Source: the human T2T-CHM13v2.0 reference genome, Homo sapiens | Assembly: GCF_009914755.1 (NCBI RefSeq) | Contig: NC_060927.1 | Strand: one strand, 5' to 3' | DNA length: 64,000 nucleotides | Shown here: positions 17,987 to 39,470 of the stretch, piece by piece | How positions within the stretch are numbered: position 1 is the stretch's first letter | Layout: every line of letters begins with the position of its first letter | Program-made: the position numbers and the translations under genes | The notes under the pieces: model-generated | The model's input: the letters and a program-made list of their open reading frames with translations, nothing else | The model's database searches: none | What the model was told of the DNA's origin: nothing

Positions 17987-20900
17987 TGATATCTCATTGT
18001 AGTTTGGAGTTGCATTTCTTTGATGATCAATGATGTTGAGCACATTTTCATATGCCTGTTTAGCATTTGTATGTCTTTCTTTAAGAAATGTCTGTTCAGA
18101 TCTTTTGCCCATTTTAAAAATTGGATTAAAAATCCAATTAAATCTAAAAAGTTAGATTTTTTTACTACAGAGTTGTTTAAGCTCCTTATATATTCTAGTT
18201 ATTATCCCCTTGTCAGATGGATAGTTTGCAAATATTTTCTCCGATTCTGTGGGTTGTCTCTTCGCTTTGTTGATTGTTCCCTTTGCTCGGCAGGTTTCTC
18301 ACTTGAGGTGATTCCATTTGTCCATTTTTGCTTTGGTTGCCTGTGCTTGTGGGGTATCACTCAAGAAATTTTTTGCCCAGATCAATGTCCTGGAGAGTCT
18401 CCCCAATGTTTTCTTGCAGAAGTGTCATAGTTTGAGGTCTTAGATTTAAGTCTTTAATCCATTTTGATTTGATTTTTGTATATGGCAAGAGACAGGGGTC
18501 TAGATTCATTCTTCTGCATGTGGATATCTGGTCTTCCCAGCACAATTTATTAAAGAGACTGTCTTTGCCCCACTGTAAATTCTTGGCATCTTTGTTGGAA
18601 ATGAGTTCACTGTAGGTGTGTGGATTAGATTCTGGGTTCTTTATCCTGTTCCATTGGTCTATGTATCTGTACCATGCTGTTTTGGTTACTATACCTCTGT
18701 CATATACTTTGAAGTCAGGTAATGTGATTCCTCCCGTTTTGTTTTTTTGCTTAGGACAGCTTTGGCTATTTTGGGTCATTTGTAATTCCATAGAAATGTT
18801 TGGATTGTTTTTTCTATTTCTGTGAAGAATGTCATTGGTTTTTGTTTTTGTTTTTTATAGGGATTGCACTGAATCTGTCAATCGCTTTGGGTAGCATGGA
18901 CATTTTAACAATATTGATTCTTCCAATCTATGAACATGGAATATCTTTTCATTTTTTTGGTGTCCTCTTCAATTTATTTCATCAGTGTTTTATAGTAATC
19001 TTTTACTTCTAATCTTTTACTTCTTTGGTTAATTGCTAGGTATTTAATTTTATTTGTAGCTATTGTATATGGGATTACTTTCTTGATTTCTTTTTCAGAT
19101 TGTTCACTGTTGGCATATAGAAATGCTACTAATTTTTGGTTTTTGATTTTGTATTCTGCAACCTTACTTGATTTGTTTATCTGTTCTAATAGTTTTTTGG
19201 TGGAGTCTTTAGGTTTTTCCAAATATAAAATTACATCATCTGCAAACAAGGATAATTTAACTTCTTCCTTTCCCTTTATTTCTTTCTCTTGTCTGATTGC
19301 TGTAGCTAGAAATTTTAGTACTATGTTGAATAATAGTGGTGAGAGTGGGTATCCTTGTCATGTTCCAGATCTTAGAGGAAAGGCTTTCAGTTTTTCCCCA
19401 TTCAGTATGATACTAGCTGTGGGTCTTTCATATATGGCTTTTACTATGTTGAGGTATGCTTCTTCTATACCCAGTTTCATGAGGGTTTTTATCATGAAGG
19501 GATGTTGAACTTTATCAAATGCTTTTACAGTATCCATTGAAATGATCATATGGTTTTTGTCCTTCATTCTGTTGATATGATGTGTCACATTGATTGATTT
19601 GCATATGTTGAACTATCCTTGCATCCCAGGGATAAATCTCACTTGATCACAGTGAATAATATTTTTAATGTATTGTTGAATTTGGTTTGCTAGTATTTTG
19701 TCAAGGATTTTTGCAACAATATTCATCAGAGATATTGGCCTGTAGTTGTTGTTTTTATGTGTCTTTCTCTGGTTTTAGCATCAAGGTAATACTGGCCTCA
19801 TAGAATGAGTTTGGAAGTATTTCCTCCTCCTATATTTTCCAGAATAGTTTGAGTAGGATTGGTATTAGTTCTTCTTTAAATGTTTGGTAGAATTCAGCAG
19901 TGAAGCCATCAGTTCAGGGCTTTTCTTTGCTTGGAGAATTTTTATTATGACTTCTATCTCATTACTTGTTATTGATCTGTTTAGCTTTTGAATTTCTTCA
20001 TGGTTCAATCTTGGTAGGTTGTATGTATCTAGTAATTTGTCCATTTCTTCTAGATTTTCCAGTTTATTGGCATATAGTTGCTCATGGTAGCCATTAATGA
20101 TCCTTTGACTTTCTGCAGTGTCAGTTGTAATGTCTTTTTCTCACCTCTGATTTTGCTTATTTGGGTCTTCTCTCTTTTTTCTTAGCCTGGTTAAAGGTTT
20201 GTCAATTTTGTTTAACTTTAAAAAAAACCAACTTTTTGTTTCATTGATGTTTTGTATTGTTTTCTTCTTTTCAATTTCCTTTATTTCTGTTCTGATCTTT
20301 ATTATGTCTTTTCCTCTACTATTTTTGTGTTTGTTTGCTCTTGCTATTCTAGTTCTTTAACATGCATTGTTAGGTGGTTTATTTGACATTTTTCCTCTTT
20401 TTTTTTTTTTATATAGGCACTTGTAGCTATAAAGTTGCCTCTTAGTACCGCTTTTGCTGTATCCCATAGGTTTTGATGTGTTGTGTTTCCATTATCATTT
20501 GTTTCAAGAAATTTTTTAATTTCCTTCTTAATTTCTTCACTGACCCACTGGTCATTCAGGAGCATATTGTTTAATTTCCATGTGTTTGTATAGTTTCCAA
20601 AATTCCTCATTATTGAGTTCTACTTTTATTCCATTACGGTCAGAGAAGATGCTTGATATTATTTAATTTTTTTTTTTTTTTTGAGATGGAGTCTCACTCT
20701 GTCACCCAGGCTGGATTGCAATGGTGTGCCACCATGCCCAGCTATTTTTTATATTTTTAGTAGAGATGGGGTTTTGCCATGTTGACCAGGCTGGTCTCAA
20801 ACTTCTGACCTCAGGTGATCCGCCTGCCTTGGCCTCCCAAAGTGGTGGGATTACAGGCATGAGCCACCACATTTTGAATATTTTAAGACTTGTTTTGTAA

Positions 20901-22282
20901 CTGAATGTATGGTCTATACTTGAGAATGATCGATGTACTGAGGAAAAGAATGTGTATTCTGCAGCTGTTGGATGAAATGTTCTGTAAATATCTATTAAGT
21001 CCATTTGATCTATAGTGCAGATTAAGTCTGATGTTTCTTTGTTGACTTTTTGTCTGGAAGATCTGTCCAATACTGAAAGTGAGGTGTGCTTAATTTCTGC
21101 TTAATTATTTGTAATTATTTCAATCTCTTTGTTAAATTTGTCTGATAGAATTCTGAATTCCTTTTCTGTGTTATCTTGAATTTGAGTTTTCTCAAAATAG
21201 CTATTTTGAATTCTCTGAGAGGTCACTTATCTCTGTTTCTCCAGGATTGGTCCCTGATGCCTTATTTAGTTCTTTAGGTGAGGTCTTGCTTTCCTGGATT
21301 GTCTTGATACTTATAGATTTTTGTCTGTGTCTGGGCATTGAGGAGTTAGGTATTTATTATAGTCTTCACAGTCTGAACTTGTTTGTACTCATCCTTCTTG
21401 GAAAGGAAGGCATTCCATATATTCTAAAGGACTTGGGTGTTGTGAGGGGTCTATCTAAAGCCCACTAATGCTGTGGTCCTTGCAGACTCATAGATTTACT
21501 GCCTTGGTAGTCTTGGAGAAGATCCAGAATTCTCTGGGTCACCAGGCAGAGACTCTTGTTCTCTTCCCTTACTTTCTCCCAAACAAACGGAGTGTCTTTC
21601 TCTGTTCTGACCCATCTGAAGCTGGGTGTAGAGTGACACAAGAATCCCTGTGGCCACCACCACTAGTACTGTGTTTGGACAGATCTGAAGCCAGCAAAGT
21701 GCTGGATCTCACCCAAGGCTTGCTGTAACCACTCCCTGGGTACCGCCTATGTTCATTCAAGGCCCTAGGGCTCTACAATCAGCAGGTGGCAAAGCCAGTC
21801 AAGCCTGTGTCTTTTCCTTTAGGGTGGTGAGTTCTTCCAGGCCCTGGGCAGCTATCGAGGTACCATGCTCCAGCCAGGAACTAGAGTCAAAAACCATAGA
21901 TGTCTACGTGGTGTTTTATTGTACTGTGGCTGAGCTGTCGCTCAAACTACAAGACACAGTCCTTCCCACTCTTCCCTCCCGTTTCCACAGTCAAAGGAGC
22001 CTCACCCTGTGGCCGCCACCACCACAGGCCCACAGAGAGTATTGCCAAGCTACCACCAATGTTCCCTCAAGGTCCAAGGGTTCTTCAGTCAGTTAGTGGT
22101 GAATGTTGCCTGGCCTGGGACTTACCCTTCAGAGACAGGAAAAAGACTGTTTTTAGTGCTCACCTGATTTTTGGCTCTTATCAAGGTTTTTTTGTGTGTG
22201 TGTATAAATAGTTTTTAAAATTGTGTTCTTGCTTGGAGGACAATGGGTGGAGCCTTCTATTCTGCCATCTTGCTCTGCCCCC
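17987..22282 (-). mobile_element. L1MA2-like LINE-1: 5' UTR, part of ORF1 and most of ORF2 (internally deleted), truncated at an inversion breakpoint
   Basis: ORF fragments [20 protein letters not shown] and GGITLPDFK are L1 ORF2; 5' terminus GGGGCAGAGCAAGATGGCAGAATAG on the minus strand; jump from the ORF2 endonuclease region to the ORF1 region at about 21085. Confidence 0.95.
20667..20870 (-). mobile_element. AluSx-like with an internal right-arm deletion, inserted in the L1
   Basis: T-tail, GAGATGGAGTCTCACTC..CCTCAGGTGATCC..GAGCCACCA; roughly 85 bp of right arm missing. Confidence 0.93.
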
Positions 22283-22465
22283 TGGAAGTTACTCTTACTC
22301 TTCTGAAGTTAGATCCTGTTAAGTCTTGGTTTGCTCCAAATACGTACCTGATATATGGGGACCTCTTGTCTTTTCCAAGAGTGTGGAAATGGTATATGCC
22401 ATTCCGGTTTAAATTTTGTTTGGAGTGAAAATCATAAAACTTCTAAGTTGTTCTCAGCTGACAGT

Positions 22466-38345: not shown

Positions 38346-39237
38346 CCTCACCCCAGTTAATATGGTTTATATCCAAAAGGCAGGCAATAATAAATGCTGG
38401 CGAGGATGTGGAGAAAAGGGAACCCTGGTACACTGTTGATGGGAATGTAAATTAGTACAACCACTGTGGAGAACAGTGTGGAGGTTCCTCAACAAATTTA
38501 AAAATAGAGTTGCCATATGATCCAGCAATCCCACTGCTGGGTATATACCCAAAAGAAAGGAAATCAGTATAGTGAAGAGACACCTGTACTCCCATGTTTG
38601 TTGCAGCACTGTTCACAATAACCAAGATTTGGAAGCAACCTAAGTGTCCATCAACAGACGAATGAATAAAGAAAATATCCTACCTATACACAATGGACTT
38701 CTATTCAGCCATAAAAAAGAATGAGATCCTGTCATTTGCAACAACATGGATGGAACTGTAGGTCATTGTGTTAAGTGAAATAAGCCAGGCACAGAAAGAC
38801 AAACACTGCATATTCTAACTTATTTGCAGGATTTGTTAATAAAAATCAAAACAATCAAACTCATGGACATAGAGAGTAGAAGGATGGTGACCACAGGCTG
38901 AGAAGGGTAATGGGGGACTGTGAAGGGGAGGGGGAATGGTAAATGAGTACAAAAACATTAGTTAGAAATAATGCATAAGACCTAGTATTTTGTAGTACAA
39001 CAGGGTGATTATAGTCAGTAGTAATTTAATTGTACTATTGAGTACATTTGGAGTACTCAGCGTATACTCCAGAGTATAATTGGATTATAACATGAAACAT
39101 AAATATTTGAGGGGATGGATACCCCATTTTCCATGATGTAATTATTATGCATTGCATACCTATTTCAAAGCATTTTATGTACCCCATAGATATATACACC
39201 TACTATGTATGTACCCACAAAAATTAAAAAATTAAAA
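38346..39237 (+). mobile_element. L1MA2-like ORF2 C-terminus and 3' UTR, the missing 3' part of the 17987-22282 element
   Basis: Starts CCTCACCCCAGTTAA, ends GTACCCACAAAAATTAAAAAATTAAAA; followed by TSD AAGAGTAACTTCCA. Confidence 0.95.
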
Positions 39238-39470
39238 AAGAGTAACTTCCAAAGACAAAATATATTTCTATCTTCATGTGACTGCTGGAGTTAAGAAGAG
39301 GGAGAAGAAGAAAGAGGCATTGTCCAATTAATTTAAGGATAAGGATACAGGACAATGAGGCAAGTACCAAGTTTACTGGGGGAAAATATGTAAACAGACC
39401 TTAGATAAATAATCAATCAGCAAGCATATATCAAAACTTACATGCATAGACATGTATCACCAATTCCTTT

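What the first reader, a model, noticed from the sequence alone, without database searches (positions are those of the whole stretch)
17987..39251. A ~20.4-kb inversion revealed by one L1 cut in two: in-frame rejoin and a shared TSD in opposite orientations
Seen (1): the minus-strand L1 at 17987-22282 stops abruptly at ...ACTACAATGAGATATCA, and the plus-strand L1 3' piece starts at 38346 with CCTCACCCCAGTTAATATG. Joined, they read ACT ACA ATG AGA TAT CAC CTC ACC CCA GTT = TTMRYHLTPV, the L1 ORF2 C-terminal motif (compare TTMKYHLTPL in the ORF at 30929-31117), with no base gained or lost. Seen (2): the 14-mer next to the L1 5' end (22283-22296, TGGAAGTTACTCTT) is the exact reverse complement of the 14-mer after the 3' tail (39238-39251, AAGAGTAACTTCCA). 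Known: L1 insertions are flanked by direct TSDs. Inference: both pieces are one insertion, and 17987-38345 (20,359 bp) was inverted afterwards. No long inverted homology is visible at the breakpoints, which points to end joining rather than homologous recombination. The 16 kb of genomic DNA between the halves rules out ordinary twin priming. All elements and any enhancers inside were flipped.
Basis: partly seen in the sequence, partly recalled or inferred. Interest (0 to 1): 0.85.

Follow-up and report, generated by a model that had tools for sequence, protein, structure and literature searches.

The report
Old L1 split by 20-kb inversion
One ancient L1 retrotransposon on human chromosome 3 was cut in two when about 20 kb of DNA flipped after it had inserted; this is a clean but ordinary example of an evolutionary inversion made by simple end joining.

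Summary
The minus-strand L1 piece (17987-22282) and the plus-strand piece (38346-39237) are the two halves of one element.

- **Abutment:** the halves abut base for base against an L1 inside the window. They also abut in 18 of 19 other genomic copies.
- **Rejoined sequence:** the in-silico rejoined sequence aligns as one segment across the join in 19 of 19 copies. No gaps appear in a multiple alignment. The ORF2 frame stays open for 101 codons.
- **Duplication:** the 14-mer at the L1's true 5' terminus is the exact reverse complement of the 14-mer after the A-rich tail. Each occurs once in the window.
- **Same age:** both halves have a similar own divergence, 0.097 and 0.113.
- **Junctions:** both have 0 nt of microhomology, and no inverted homology lies within 1 kb. 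The flanks at the non-L1 break are unique in the genome.

Best reading (about 0.85): a normal L1 insertion was followed by a two-break, end-joined inversion of 17987-38345 (20,359 bp). Twin priming, repeat-mediated recombination and the published L1-coupled flank inversions do not fit the geometry. The date, whether the inversion is fixed, and any loss at the non-L1 break need other genomes, which were not available. The "L1MA2" label is untested. This is an ordinary kind of event, so interest is low to moderate.

The parts
17987..38345 (.). The inverted block (20,359 bp). It is bounded by junction 1 (17986|17987) and junction 2 (38345|38346).
   Evidence: Flipping this block in silico restores one continuous L1 with direct 14-bp TSDs. 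Both junctions have 0 nt of microhomology.
17987..22282 (-). 5' piece of the L1. It runs from the element's own 5' terminus (22282) to the break inside ORF2 (17987). It contains the reverse-transcriptase region at 18977-19774. It lacks about 1.1 kb of 5'UTR and part of the ORF1/endonuclease region relative to two long relatives.
   Evidence: Pfam RVT_1 matches three consecutive frame pieces (E 4.7e-13, 7.8e-07, 6.1e-07). Other copies start aligning at 22282 or 22281 in 3 of 7 loci and at 22275 in a fourth.
20659..20870 (-). Alu-like fragment inserted inside the L1 5' piece.
   Evidence: It is 81-87% identical to the Alu at 33600-34100 in inverted orientation. Its boundaries are approximate.
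22283..22296 (-). Upstream copy of the target-site duplication. It now lies in reverse-complement orientation, directly next to the L1 5' terminus.
   Evidence: It is the exact reverse complement of 39238-39251, and each orientation occurs once in the window.
22297..38345 (.). 16,049 bp of the original upstream flank, carried along in the inversion. It contains another old L1 at about 30.5-32.3 kb, Alus, and all three exons of the predicted lncRNA LOC105377045.
   Evidence: The stretch next to the TSD copy (22283-22680) and the stretch at the far end (37946-38345) each occur once in the genome. Repeats inside are listed. The lncRNA exons come from the hub's gene table.
38346..39237 (+). 3' piece of the same L1: the ORF2 C-terminal part, the 3'UTR and an A-rich tail (about 39219-39237).
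   Evidence: It starts exactly one L1 position after the 5' piece ends. It is 79-81% identical over 884-905 aligned columns to 10 of the comparison copies, against about 75-80% for the 5' piece in the copies it covers in full. The tail was read.
39238..39251 (+). Downstream copy of the target-site duplication.
17587..17986 (+). Unique DNA outside the left breakpoint. In the inferred ancestral order it adjoined the reverse complement of 38345 and the bases below it.
   Evidence: It matches only itself in the genome. It has no inverted match longer than 11 nt to the other breakpoint region.

Best explanation
An L1 retrotransposon inserted by ordinary target-primed reverse transcription. It arrived with its own 5' terminus, an A-rich tail and a 14-bp target-site duplication. 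My rough estimate of its age is some tens of millions of years. Later, two double-strand breaks occurred. One fell inside ORF2, between the bases now at 17987 and 38346. The other fell in unique DNA about 16 kb upstream of the insertion. The 20,359-bp segment between the breaks was religated in reverse orientation by non-homologous end joining.

Shown: both pieces are one element, the join is seamless, the TSD copy is inverted, and there is no homology at the junctions. Inferred: the order of events (insertion first, inversion later), the repair pathway, and the age.
For: 1. **Adjacency.** Against the in-window L1 (30860-31180, minus strand) the 5' piece ends at alignment column 147 and the 3' piece begins at column 148.
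2. **Test against other copies.** The 19 comparison copies were each picked for similarity to only one of the two pieces. In 18 of 19 the pieces land on adjacent bases; in 2 of those 18 this rests on extrapolating 1-2 unaligned end bases. L017 overlaps by 2 nt. The in-silico rejoined 800+892 nt gives a single alignment across the join in 19 of 19.
3. **Multiple alignment.** With 8 copies, no row has a gap in the 12 columns round the join. In L029, 17987 matches position 7428 and 38347 matches position 7430.
4. **Frame.** It stays open for 101 codons across the join.
5. **TSD.** An exact 14-mer lies in inverted orientation. It sits directly at the point where other L1 copies begin to align, which is the true 5' terminus.
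6. **Same age.** The star-tree own branch is 0.097 for the 5' part and 0.113 for the 3' part. The other 8 copies range over 0.068-0.104 and 0.086-0.151 in the same segments.
7. **Junctions.** Microhomology is 0 nt at both. No inverted match longer than 11 nt lies within 1 kb of either breakpoint. No long inverted repeat pairs the breakpoints. The flanks at the non-L1 break are single-copy in the genome.
8. **Precedent.** Using TSDs to read the pre-inversion state is established practice (Lee et al. 2008, PMC2603318; passages read).
Against: - **No outgroup or second human haplotype.** The uninverted state has not been observed. The order "insertion, then inversion" is therefore parsimony, not observation.
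- **Unusually clean break.** No base was lost or gained on either side of the L1 break. End joining can do this, but it would also suit a break made while the insertion was being completed.
- **Perfect TSD copies.** They match 14 of 14 although the element's own divergence is about 0.10 per site. By my arithmetic, 0.9^28 is about 0.05 if that divergence all arose after insertion. This is a mild tension only.
- **Non-L1 breakpoint.** Loss, gain or filler DNA there cannot be assessed.
- **Shared motif.** The two inferred ancestral break sites share a direct TCA(C)|CCT motif. Only 205 of 200,000 random site pairs do so, but the statistic was chosen after the fact. It remains unexplained.
Confidence: 0.85

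Rival explanations
1. One-step event: the inversion arose during the retrotransposition itself. In this model the double-strand-break ends made by the L1 endonuclease, plus a second break 16 kb upstream, were rejoined wrongly before the insertion was sealed. This is the kind of event described for L1-induced DSB-end remodelling in cell models and tumours.
For: - Mendez-Dorantes et al. (bioRxiv 10.1101/2024.12.14.628481; section 9 and passages read) report L1 insertions with an inverted flank on the reciprocal end. A TSD-like overlap of 4-15 bp is preserved in those cases.
- Here an inverted TSD copy is preserved, and the L1 break is perfectly clean.
Against: - **Geometry.** In the published form the inverted TSD end is joined directly to distal genomic DNA. 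Here 4.3 kb of L1 lies between them. That L1 is attached to the TSD by its own 5' terminus in sense orientation, as in a finished insertion. First- and second-strand synthesis must therefore have been essentially complete.
- **Microhomology.** The published experimental example has 14 bp of homology at the inversion junction. Here it is 0 nt.
- **Priming.** By sight, the 3' end of the left flank is not complementary to the L1 RNA at the break, so priming from that end is unsupported.
- **Size.** The paper places most L1-mediated deletions under 10 kb, within the range of end resection. The inverted flank here is 16 kb.
Confidence: 0.08
2. Ordinary twin priming: the 5' part of the L1 was inverted during insertion.
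For: The 5' part is inverted relative to the 3' part, and the two are adjacent in L1 coordinates. Twin-primed insertions look like this (Ostertag and Kazazian 2001, seen only as a citation; the mechanism is recalled).
Against: - 16,049 bp of DNA, single-copy where tested, separates the halves.
- The TSD copy lies at the L1's 5' terminus and is inverted. Twin priming predicts no TSD copy there.
- Twin priming predicts a direct TSD copy left of 17987. The 14-mer occurs only once in forward orientation in the window, at 39238.
Confidence: 0.01
3. Non-allelic homologous recombination between two inverted repeats (retrotransposon recombination-mediated inversion).
For: This is a documented route to inversions between human and chimpanzee (Lee et al. 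2008, PMC2603318; listing, passages).
Against: - One breakpoint lies in single-copy DNA.
- There is no inverted homology at the breakpoints.
- The L1 pieces are truncated halves, not chimeric full elements with mismatched TSDs.
Confidence: 0.01
4. Two unrelated L1 fragments that abut by chance, or a misassembly of this haplotype.
For: Nothing positive. Only one assembly was available.
Against: - The joint coincidence needed is negligible. It requires exact adjacency in L1 coordinates, equal divergence, and an exact inverted 14-mer at the two prescribed places (4^-14).
- Both junctions lie next to single-copy sequence, where assembly errors are unlikely. The window has no N.
Confidence: 0.02

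Closest known systems
Two-break, end-joined (non-homologous) evolutionary inversions of primate genomes
   Same: Two breakpoints without homology, 0 nt of microhomology, and no duplication at the ends. One breakpoint falls inside an interspersed repeat, as expected when L1 makes up a large share of the genome (recalled).
   Different: Nothing in kind. The special feature is that the broken repeat still carries both TSD copies and its own 5' terminus. The ancestral order can therefore be read from one genome alone.
Retrotransposon recombination-mediated inversion (Lee et al. 2008, PMC2603318)
   Same: The inversion is read from L1 and TSD structure. The TSD logic is the same.
   Different: That class needs two inverted homologous elements and yields chimeric elements with unmatched TSDs. 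Here a single element is cut, and the other break lies in unique DNA.
Twin priming (5'-inverted L1 insertions)
   Same: The 5' part is inverted, and the parts are adjacent in L1 coordinates.
   Different: 16 kb of unique DNA lies between the parts. The TSD copy is inverted and sits at the L1 5' terminus. No direct TSD copy lies left of the inverted part.
L1-induced DSB-end remodelling inversions (Mendez-Dorantes et al., bioRxiv 10.1101/2024.12.14.628481)
   Same: The flank next to an L1 insertion is inverted, with the TSD signature kept.
   Different: There the inverted TSD end joins distal DNA directly. The one experimental example read there shows a 917-bp inversion with 14 bp of junction homology. 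Here a sense-attached 4.3-kb L1 part intervenes, the flank is 16 kb, and homology is 0 nt.

Membership tests
L1 (LINE-1) insertion by target-primed reverse transcription | Reverse-transcriptase coding region and homology to other genomic L1 copies along its length | tested here: met
   Pfam RVT_1 matches three consecutive frame pieces. Thousands of first-look candidates were found in the genome, and the scored ones were 73-92% identical for the 5' piece and 88-90% for the start of the 3' piece.
L1 (LINE-1) insertion by target-primed reverse transcription | A-rich 3' tail followed by a target-site duplication that also precedes the 5' end | tested here: met
   The tail ends at 39237. The 14-bp TSD lies at 39238-39251 and, inverted, at 22283-22296 next to the 5' terminus. 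The two copies become direct only after the block is flipped back.
L1 (LINE-1) insertion by target-primed reverse transcription | Endonuclease-type target (T-rich | A-rich nick site) | tested here: inconclusive
   The nicked strand reads TCTT|AC at 22293-22298 (read). The consensus TTTT|AA is recalled, not tested. This site resembles a common variant but is not a strict match.
   No repeat-consensus library was available. Only the own-branch divergence of 0.097-0.113 was measured.
Twin-primed L1 | The inverted 5' part abuts the 3' part directly, and direct TSDs flank the whole | tested here: not met
   16,049 bp lies between the parts. The TSD copy is inverted and lies at the L1 5' terminus, and no forward copy lies left of 17987.
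Repeat-mediated (NAHR) inversion | Inverted homologous repeats spanning both breakpoints | tested here: not met
   Searches found no inverted match longer than 11 nt within 1 kb. The flanks are unique.
End-joined two-break inversion | Junctions without homology, with little or no microhomology and no flanking inverted duplication | tested here: met
   Microhomology is 0 nt at both junctions. Nothing is duplicated or lost at the L1 break.
End-joined two-break inversion | The uninverted ancestral arrangement is seen in an outgroup or another haplotype | not testable with these tools
   No primate or human pangenome sequence was available. One supplement file of PMC12350158, cut when stored, had no chr3 entry for four coordinate prefixes, which is inconclusive. 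Paper reading closed.
L1-coupled flank inversion (DSB-end remodelling) | The inverted TSD end is joined directly to distal DNA, with homology at the inversion junction | tested here: not met
   The L1 5' part lies between the distal DNA and the inverted TSD. Homology is 0 nt. The comparison is with section 9 of the preprint.

The most novel reading that the evidence does not exclude
The locus is a germline fossil of an inversion coupled to retrotransposition. In this reading, the L1 integration intermediate, with second-strand synthesis nearly finished, broke inside ORF2. Together with a break 16 kb upstream, the intervening segment was religated backwards in the same cell cycle. This would extend the L1-induced rearrangements known from tumours and cell models to a fixed event in the primate germline. 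The perfectly clean L1 break and the intact 14 of 14 TSD are compatible with it.
Probability: 0.08. Interest if true: 0.55.

Novelty: new member of a known kind. Interest (0 to 1): 0.27.

Why it matters
The locus is a tidy worked example. A single genome is enough to reconstruct an ancestral gene order, because the broken L1 kept its 5' terminus, its tail and both TSD copies. It therefore gives base-pair breakpoints and the repair signature (blunt, no homology) of an old inversion. The same signature, a split element with an inverted TSD, could be used to catalogue old end-joined inversions without outgroups.

Biologically the event itself is ordinary. It flips about 20 kb of a gene-poor stretch. 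The hub's table lists no gene within 100 kb before the window and only a pseudogene after it. The only annotated feature inside is a predicted lncRNA. No effect on regulation was shown or can be claimed.

Tried and rejected
- **Pfam on the junction peptides.** The three short peptides spanning the break region (two from the pieces, one from the in-window L1) matched no family at E up to 1. Pfam coordinates therefore could not be used for adjacency, and I used DNA alignments to other L1 copies instead.
- **A possible subfamily difference.** The best hits were about 81% identical for the 5' piece end but 88-90% for the 3' piece start. This turned out to be local conservation. Against the same loci, 800 nt of the 5' part and all 892 nt of the 3' part are both about 79-81% identical. 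The own branches are 0.097 and 0.113, while the first 314 nt of the 3' part is slow in all copies.
- **A second split repeat at the non-L1 break.** Both flanks are single-copy, so no second confirmation was possible there.
- **A repeat spanning the empty target site.** The upstream flank is unique, and the downstream repeat starts about 225 nt away, so this gave no third confirmation.
- **Rfam and tandem repeats over 15000-42000.** These gave 0 Rfam matches and 9 tandem-repeat rows of no relevance.
- **Literature for this locus.** There were 0 papers for LOC105377045. None of the 4 papers listed for "3p22.1" plus "inversion polymorphism" was relevant by title or abstract start. In the one stored supplement file of PMC12350158, four coordinate prefixes gave only chr15 rows.
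- **Microhomology and staggered-break models.** These were rejected: 0 nt at both junctions and no inverted duplication.

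
Full report
**What is in the sequence**

- The reverse complement of 17987-18003 is ACTACAATGAGATATCA, and 38346-38364 is CCTCACCCCAGTTAATATG.
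- 22283-22296 is the exact reverse complement of 39238-39251.
- That 14-mer occurs once in each orientation in the window, and the match cannot be extended on either side.
- Stop-to-stop frames show the minus-strand frame 17983-18198 ending ...TTMRY before it runs into flank. The plus-strand frame 38254-38439 carries ...LTPVNM.
- When the two stretches are joined inside a script, the frame is open for 101 codons with no stop, and the split codon encodes H.

**Are the two pieces one element?**

Three independent kinds of comparison say yes.

1. *An L1 inside the window.* The copy at 30860-31180 (minus strand) spans the break region. The 5' piece follows it up to alignment column 147 and then diverges into flank. 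The 3' piece diverges up to column 147 and follows it from column 148.

2. *Nineteen other genomic copies.*
   - Seven were picked as best hits to the last 314 nt of the 5' piece. Twelve were the first 12 of the 39 non-self hits to the first 314 nt of the 3' piece.
   - Each copy was chosen for likeness to one piece only, so the behaviour of the other piece is a real test.
   - In 18 of 19 the two pieces land on directly adjacent bases. In 2 of these 18 that rests on extrapolating 1-2 unaligned end bases. In L017 the two alignments overlap by 2 nt.
   - The in-silico rejoined 800+892 nt gives one continuous alignment across the join in 19 of 19.

3. *A multiple alignment.*
   - I aligned the rejoined stretch with the 8 of 19 copies covered by a single alignment of at least 1,576 query bases. 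The other 11 were left out for partial coverage.
   - No row has a gap in the 12 columns round the join.
   - In the long relative L029, window 17987 matches position 7428 and 38347 matches position 7430.

**Same age?**

A first look suggested otherwise. The best hits were about 81% identical for the end of the 5' piece but 88-90% for the start of the 3' piece.
- Against the same loci, 800 nt of the 5' part and the whole 892-nt 3' part are both about 79-81% identical.
- A star-tree decomposition of K2P distances gives this element an own branch of 0.097 in the 5' part and 0.113 in the 3' part. The other eight copies range over 0.068-0.104 and 0.086-0.151 in the same segments.
- The first 314 nt of the 3' part is simply slow in all copies: 0.072 here, and 0.055-0.088 in seven of the eight others, with one at 0.138.
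- The refuting condition "different subfamilies" is therefore not met. The label L1MA2 itself could not be tested.
- With a recalled neutral rate of roughly 2e-9 per site per year, an own branch near 0.10 suggests some tens of millions of years. This is a rough upper bound on the age of the inversion.

**Anatomy of the element**
- Pfam RVT_1 matches three consecutive frame pieces at 18977-19774 on the minus strand.
- In 3 of 7 loci, other L1 copies begin to align exactly at 22282 or 22281. That is the base next to the inverted TSD copy. A fourth locus begins at 22275. The TSD copy therefore sits at a true L1 5' terminus.
- Relative to two long relatives, the element lacks about 1.1 kb of 5'UTR and part of the ORF1/endonuclease region.
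- It carries an Alu-like fragment at about 20659-20870.
- The 3' piece ends in an A-rich tail (about 39219-39237) followed by the TSD.
- The nicked strand at the target reads TCTT|AC. By recall, this resembles the L1 endonuclease preference.

**The junctions**
- Microhomology is 0 nt on every possible reading of both junctions.
- No inverted match longer than 11 nt lies within 1 kb of the two breakpoints. No long inverted repeat pairs them in 15000-42000.
- The 400 nt outside the left break and the 400 nt inside the right break each occur once in the genome.
- Nothing is duplicated or lost at the L1 break.
- This is the signature of two breaks rejoined by end joining. It rules out recombination between inverted repeats, the class described by Lee et al. 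2008 (PMC2603318). That paper uses the same TSD logic to infer pre-inversion states (passages read).

**Mechanism and rivals**

*Best reading.* A completed L1 insertion was followed by a two-break inversion of 17987-38345 (20,359 bp).

*Twin priming fails.* 16,049 bp of DNA, single-copy where tested, separates the halves. An inverted TSD copy lies at the L1 5' terminus. No forward TSD copy lies left of 17987.

*A one-step event deserves a hearing.*
- Mendez-Dorantes et al. (bioRxiv 10.1101/2024.12.14.628481; passages and section 9 read) describe L1 insertions with an inverted flank in which the TSD signature is kept.
- The geometry here differs. The L1 5' part lies between the distal DNA and the inverted TSD. 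It is attached to that TSD by its own 5' terminus in sense orientation. Both strands of the insertion must therefore have been essentially complete before the break.
- Junction homology is 0 nt, against 14 bp in their experimental example. The flank is 16 kb.
- I give this reading about 0.08.

*Chance or misassembly* is negligible on the joint evidence.

**Points against, or left open**
- No outgroup and no second human haplotype could be examined. The uninverted state, the date, whether the inversion is fixed, and any loss or filler at the non-L1 break are all unobserved.
- The TSD copies are 14 of 14 identical despite about 0.10 own divergence. By my arithmetic the probability is about 0.05 if all of that divergence arose after insertion.
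- The two inferred ancestral break sites share a direct TCA(C)|CCT motif. Only 205 of 200,000 random site pairs do so, but the statistic was chosen after the fact. I have no explanation, and it may be chance.

**Literature checks for this locus**
- No paper mentions LOC105377045.
- None of the 4 papers listed for "3p22.1" plus "inversion polymorphism" was relevant by title or abstract start.
- The one stored supplement file of the 1,019-genome study (PMC12350158, cut when stored) has no chr3 row for four coordinate prefixes. This is inconclusive.

**Verdict**

The event is a well-preserved but ordinary end-joined inversion in a gene-poor region. It is a new member of a known kind, of low to moderate interest.

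Noticed in passing
window 22001-22126: The last exon of the predicted lncRNA LOC105377045 (minus strand, from the hub's gene table) lies inside the 5'UTR of the inverted L1 piece, in the L1's sense orientation. All three exons lie inside the inverted block. No paper mentions this gene.
   Followed up: partly
window 17980-17986 and 38340-38351: The two inferred ancestral break sites share a direct motif, TCA(C)|CCT. The 5-mer CTCAC ends the left flank and recurs at bases 2-6 of the L1 3' piece. Only 205 of 200,000 random site pairs share such a 3+3 motif, but the statistic was chosen after seeing the data. It may be chance or templated filler.
   Followed up: partly
window 22132-22155 and about 20872-21092: The split L1 lacks about 1.1 kb of 5'UTR and part of the ORF1/endonuclease region relative to two long relatives (L029, L030). 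The relatives' 5'UTRs show internally repeated matches, which suggests a tandem-repeat structure there.
   Followed up: partly
window 30500-32300: A second, separate old L1 (minus strand) lies inside the inverted block. It has ORF2 remnants, including the motif TTMKYHLTPL, and it served as the in-window reference for the join.
   Followed up: partly
window 38346-38659: The first roughly 300 nt after the break (the ORF2 C-terminal region) is much more conserved among L1 copies than its neighbours. Its own branches are 0.055-0.088 in eight of the nine sequences and 0.138 in one, against 0.084-0.158 for the rest of the 3' part. Naive identity comparisons between pieces are therefore misleading.
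   Followed up: yes
window 35115-35211 and 22466-22522: Two short, nearly perfect tandem repeats lie in otherwise unique DNA of the inverted block. One has a 24-nt unit in 4.0 copies at 97% match. The other has a 25-nt unit in 2.3 copies at 96% match.
   Followed up: no
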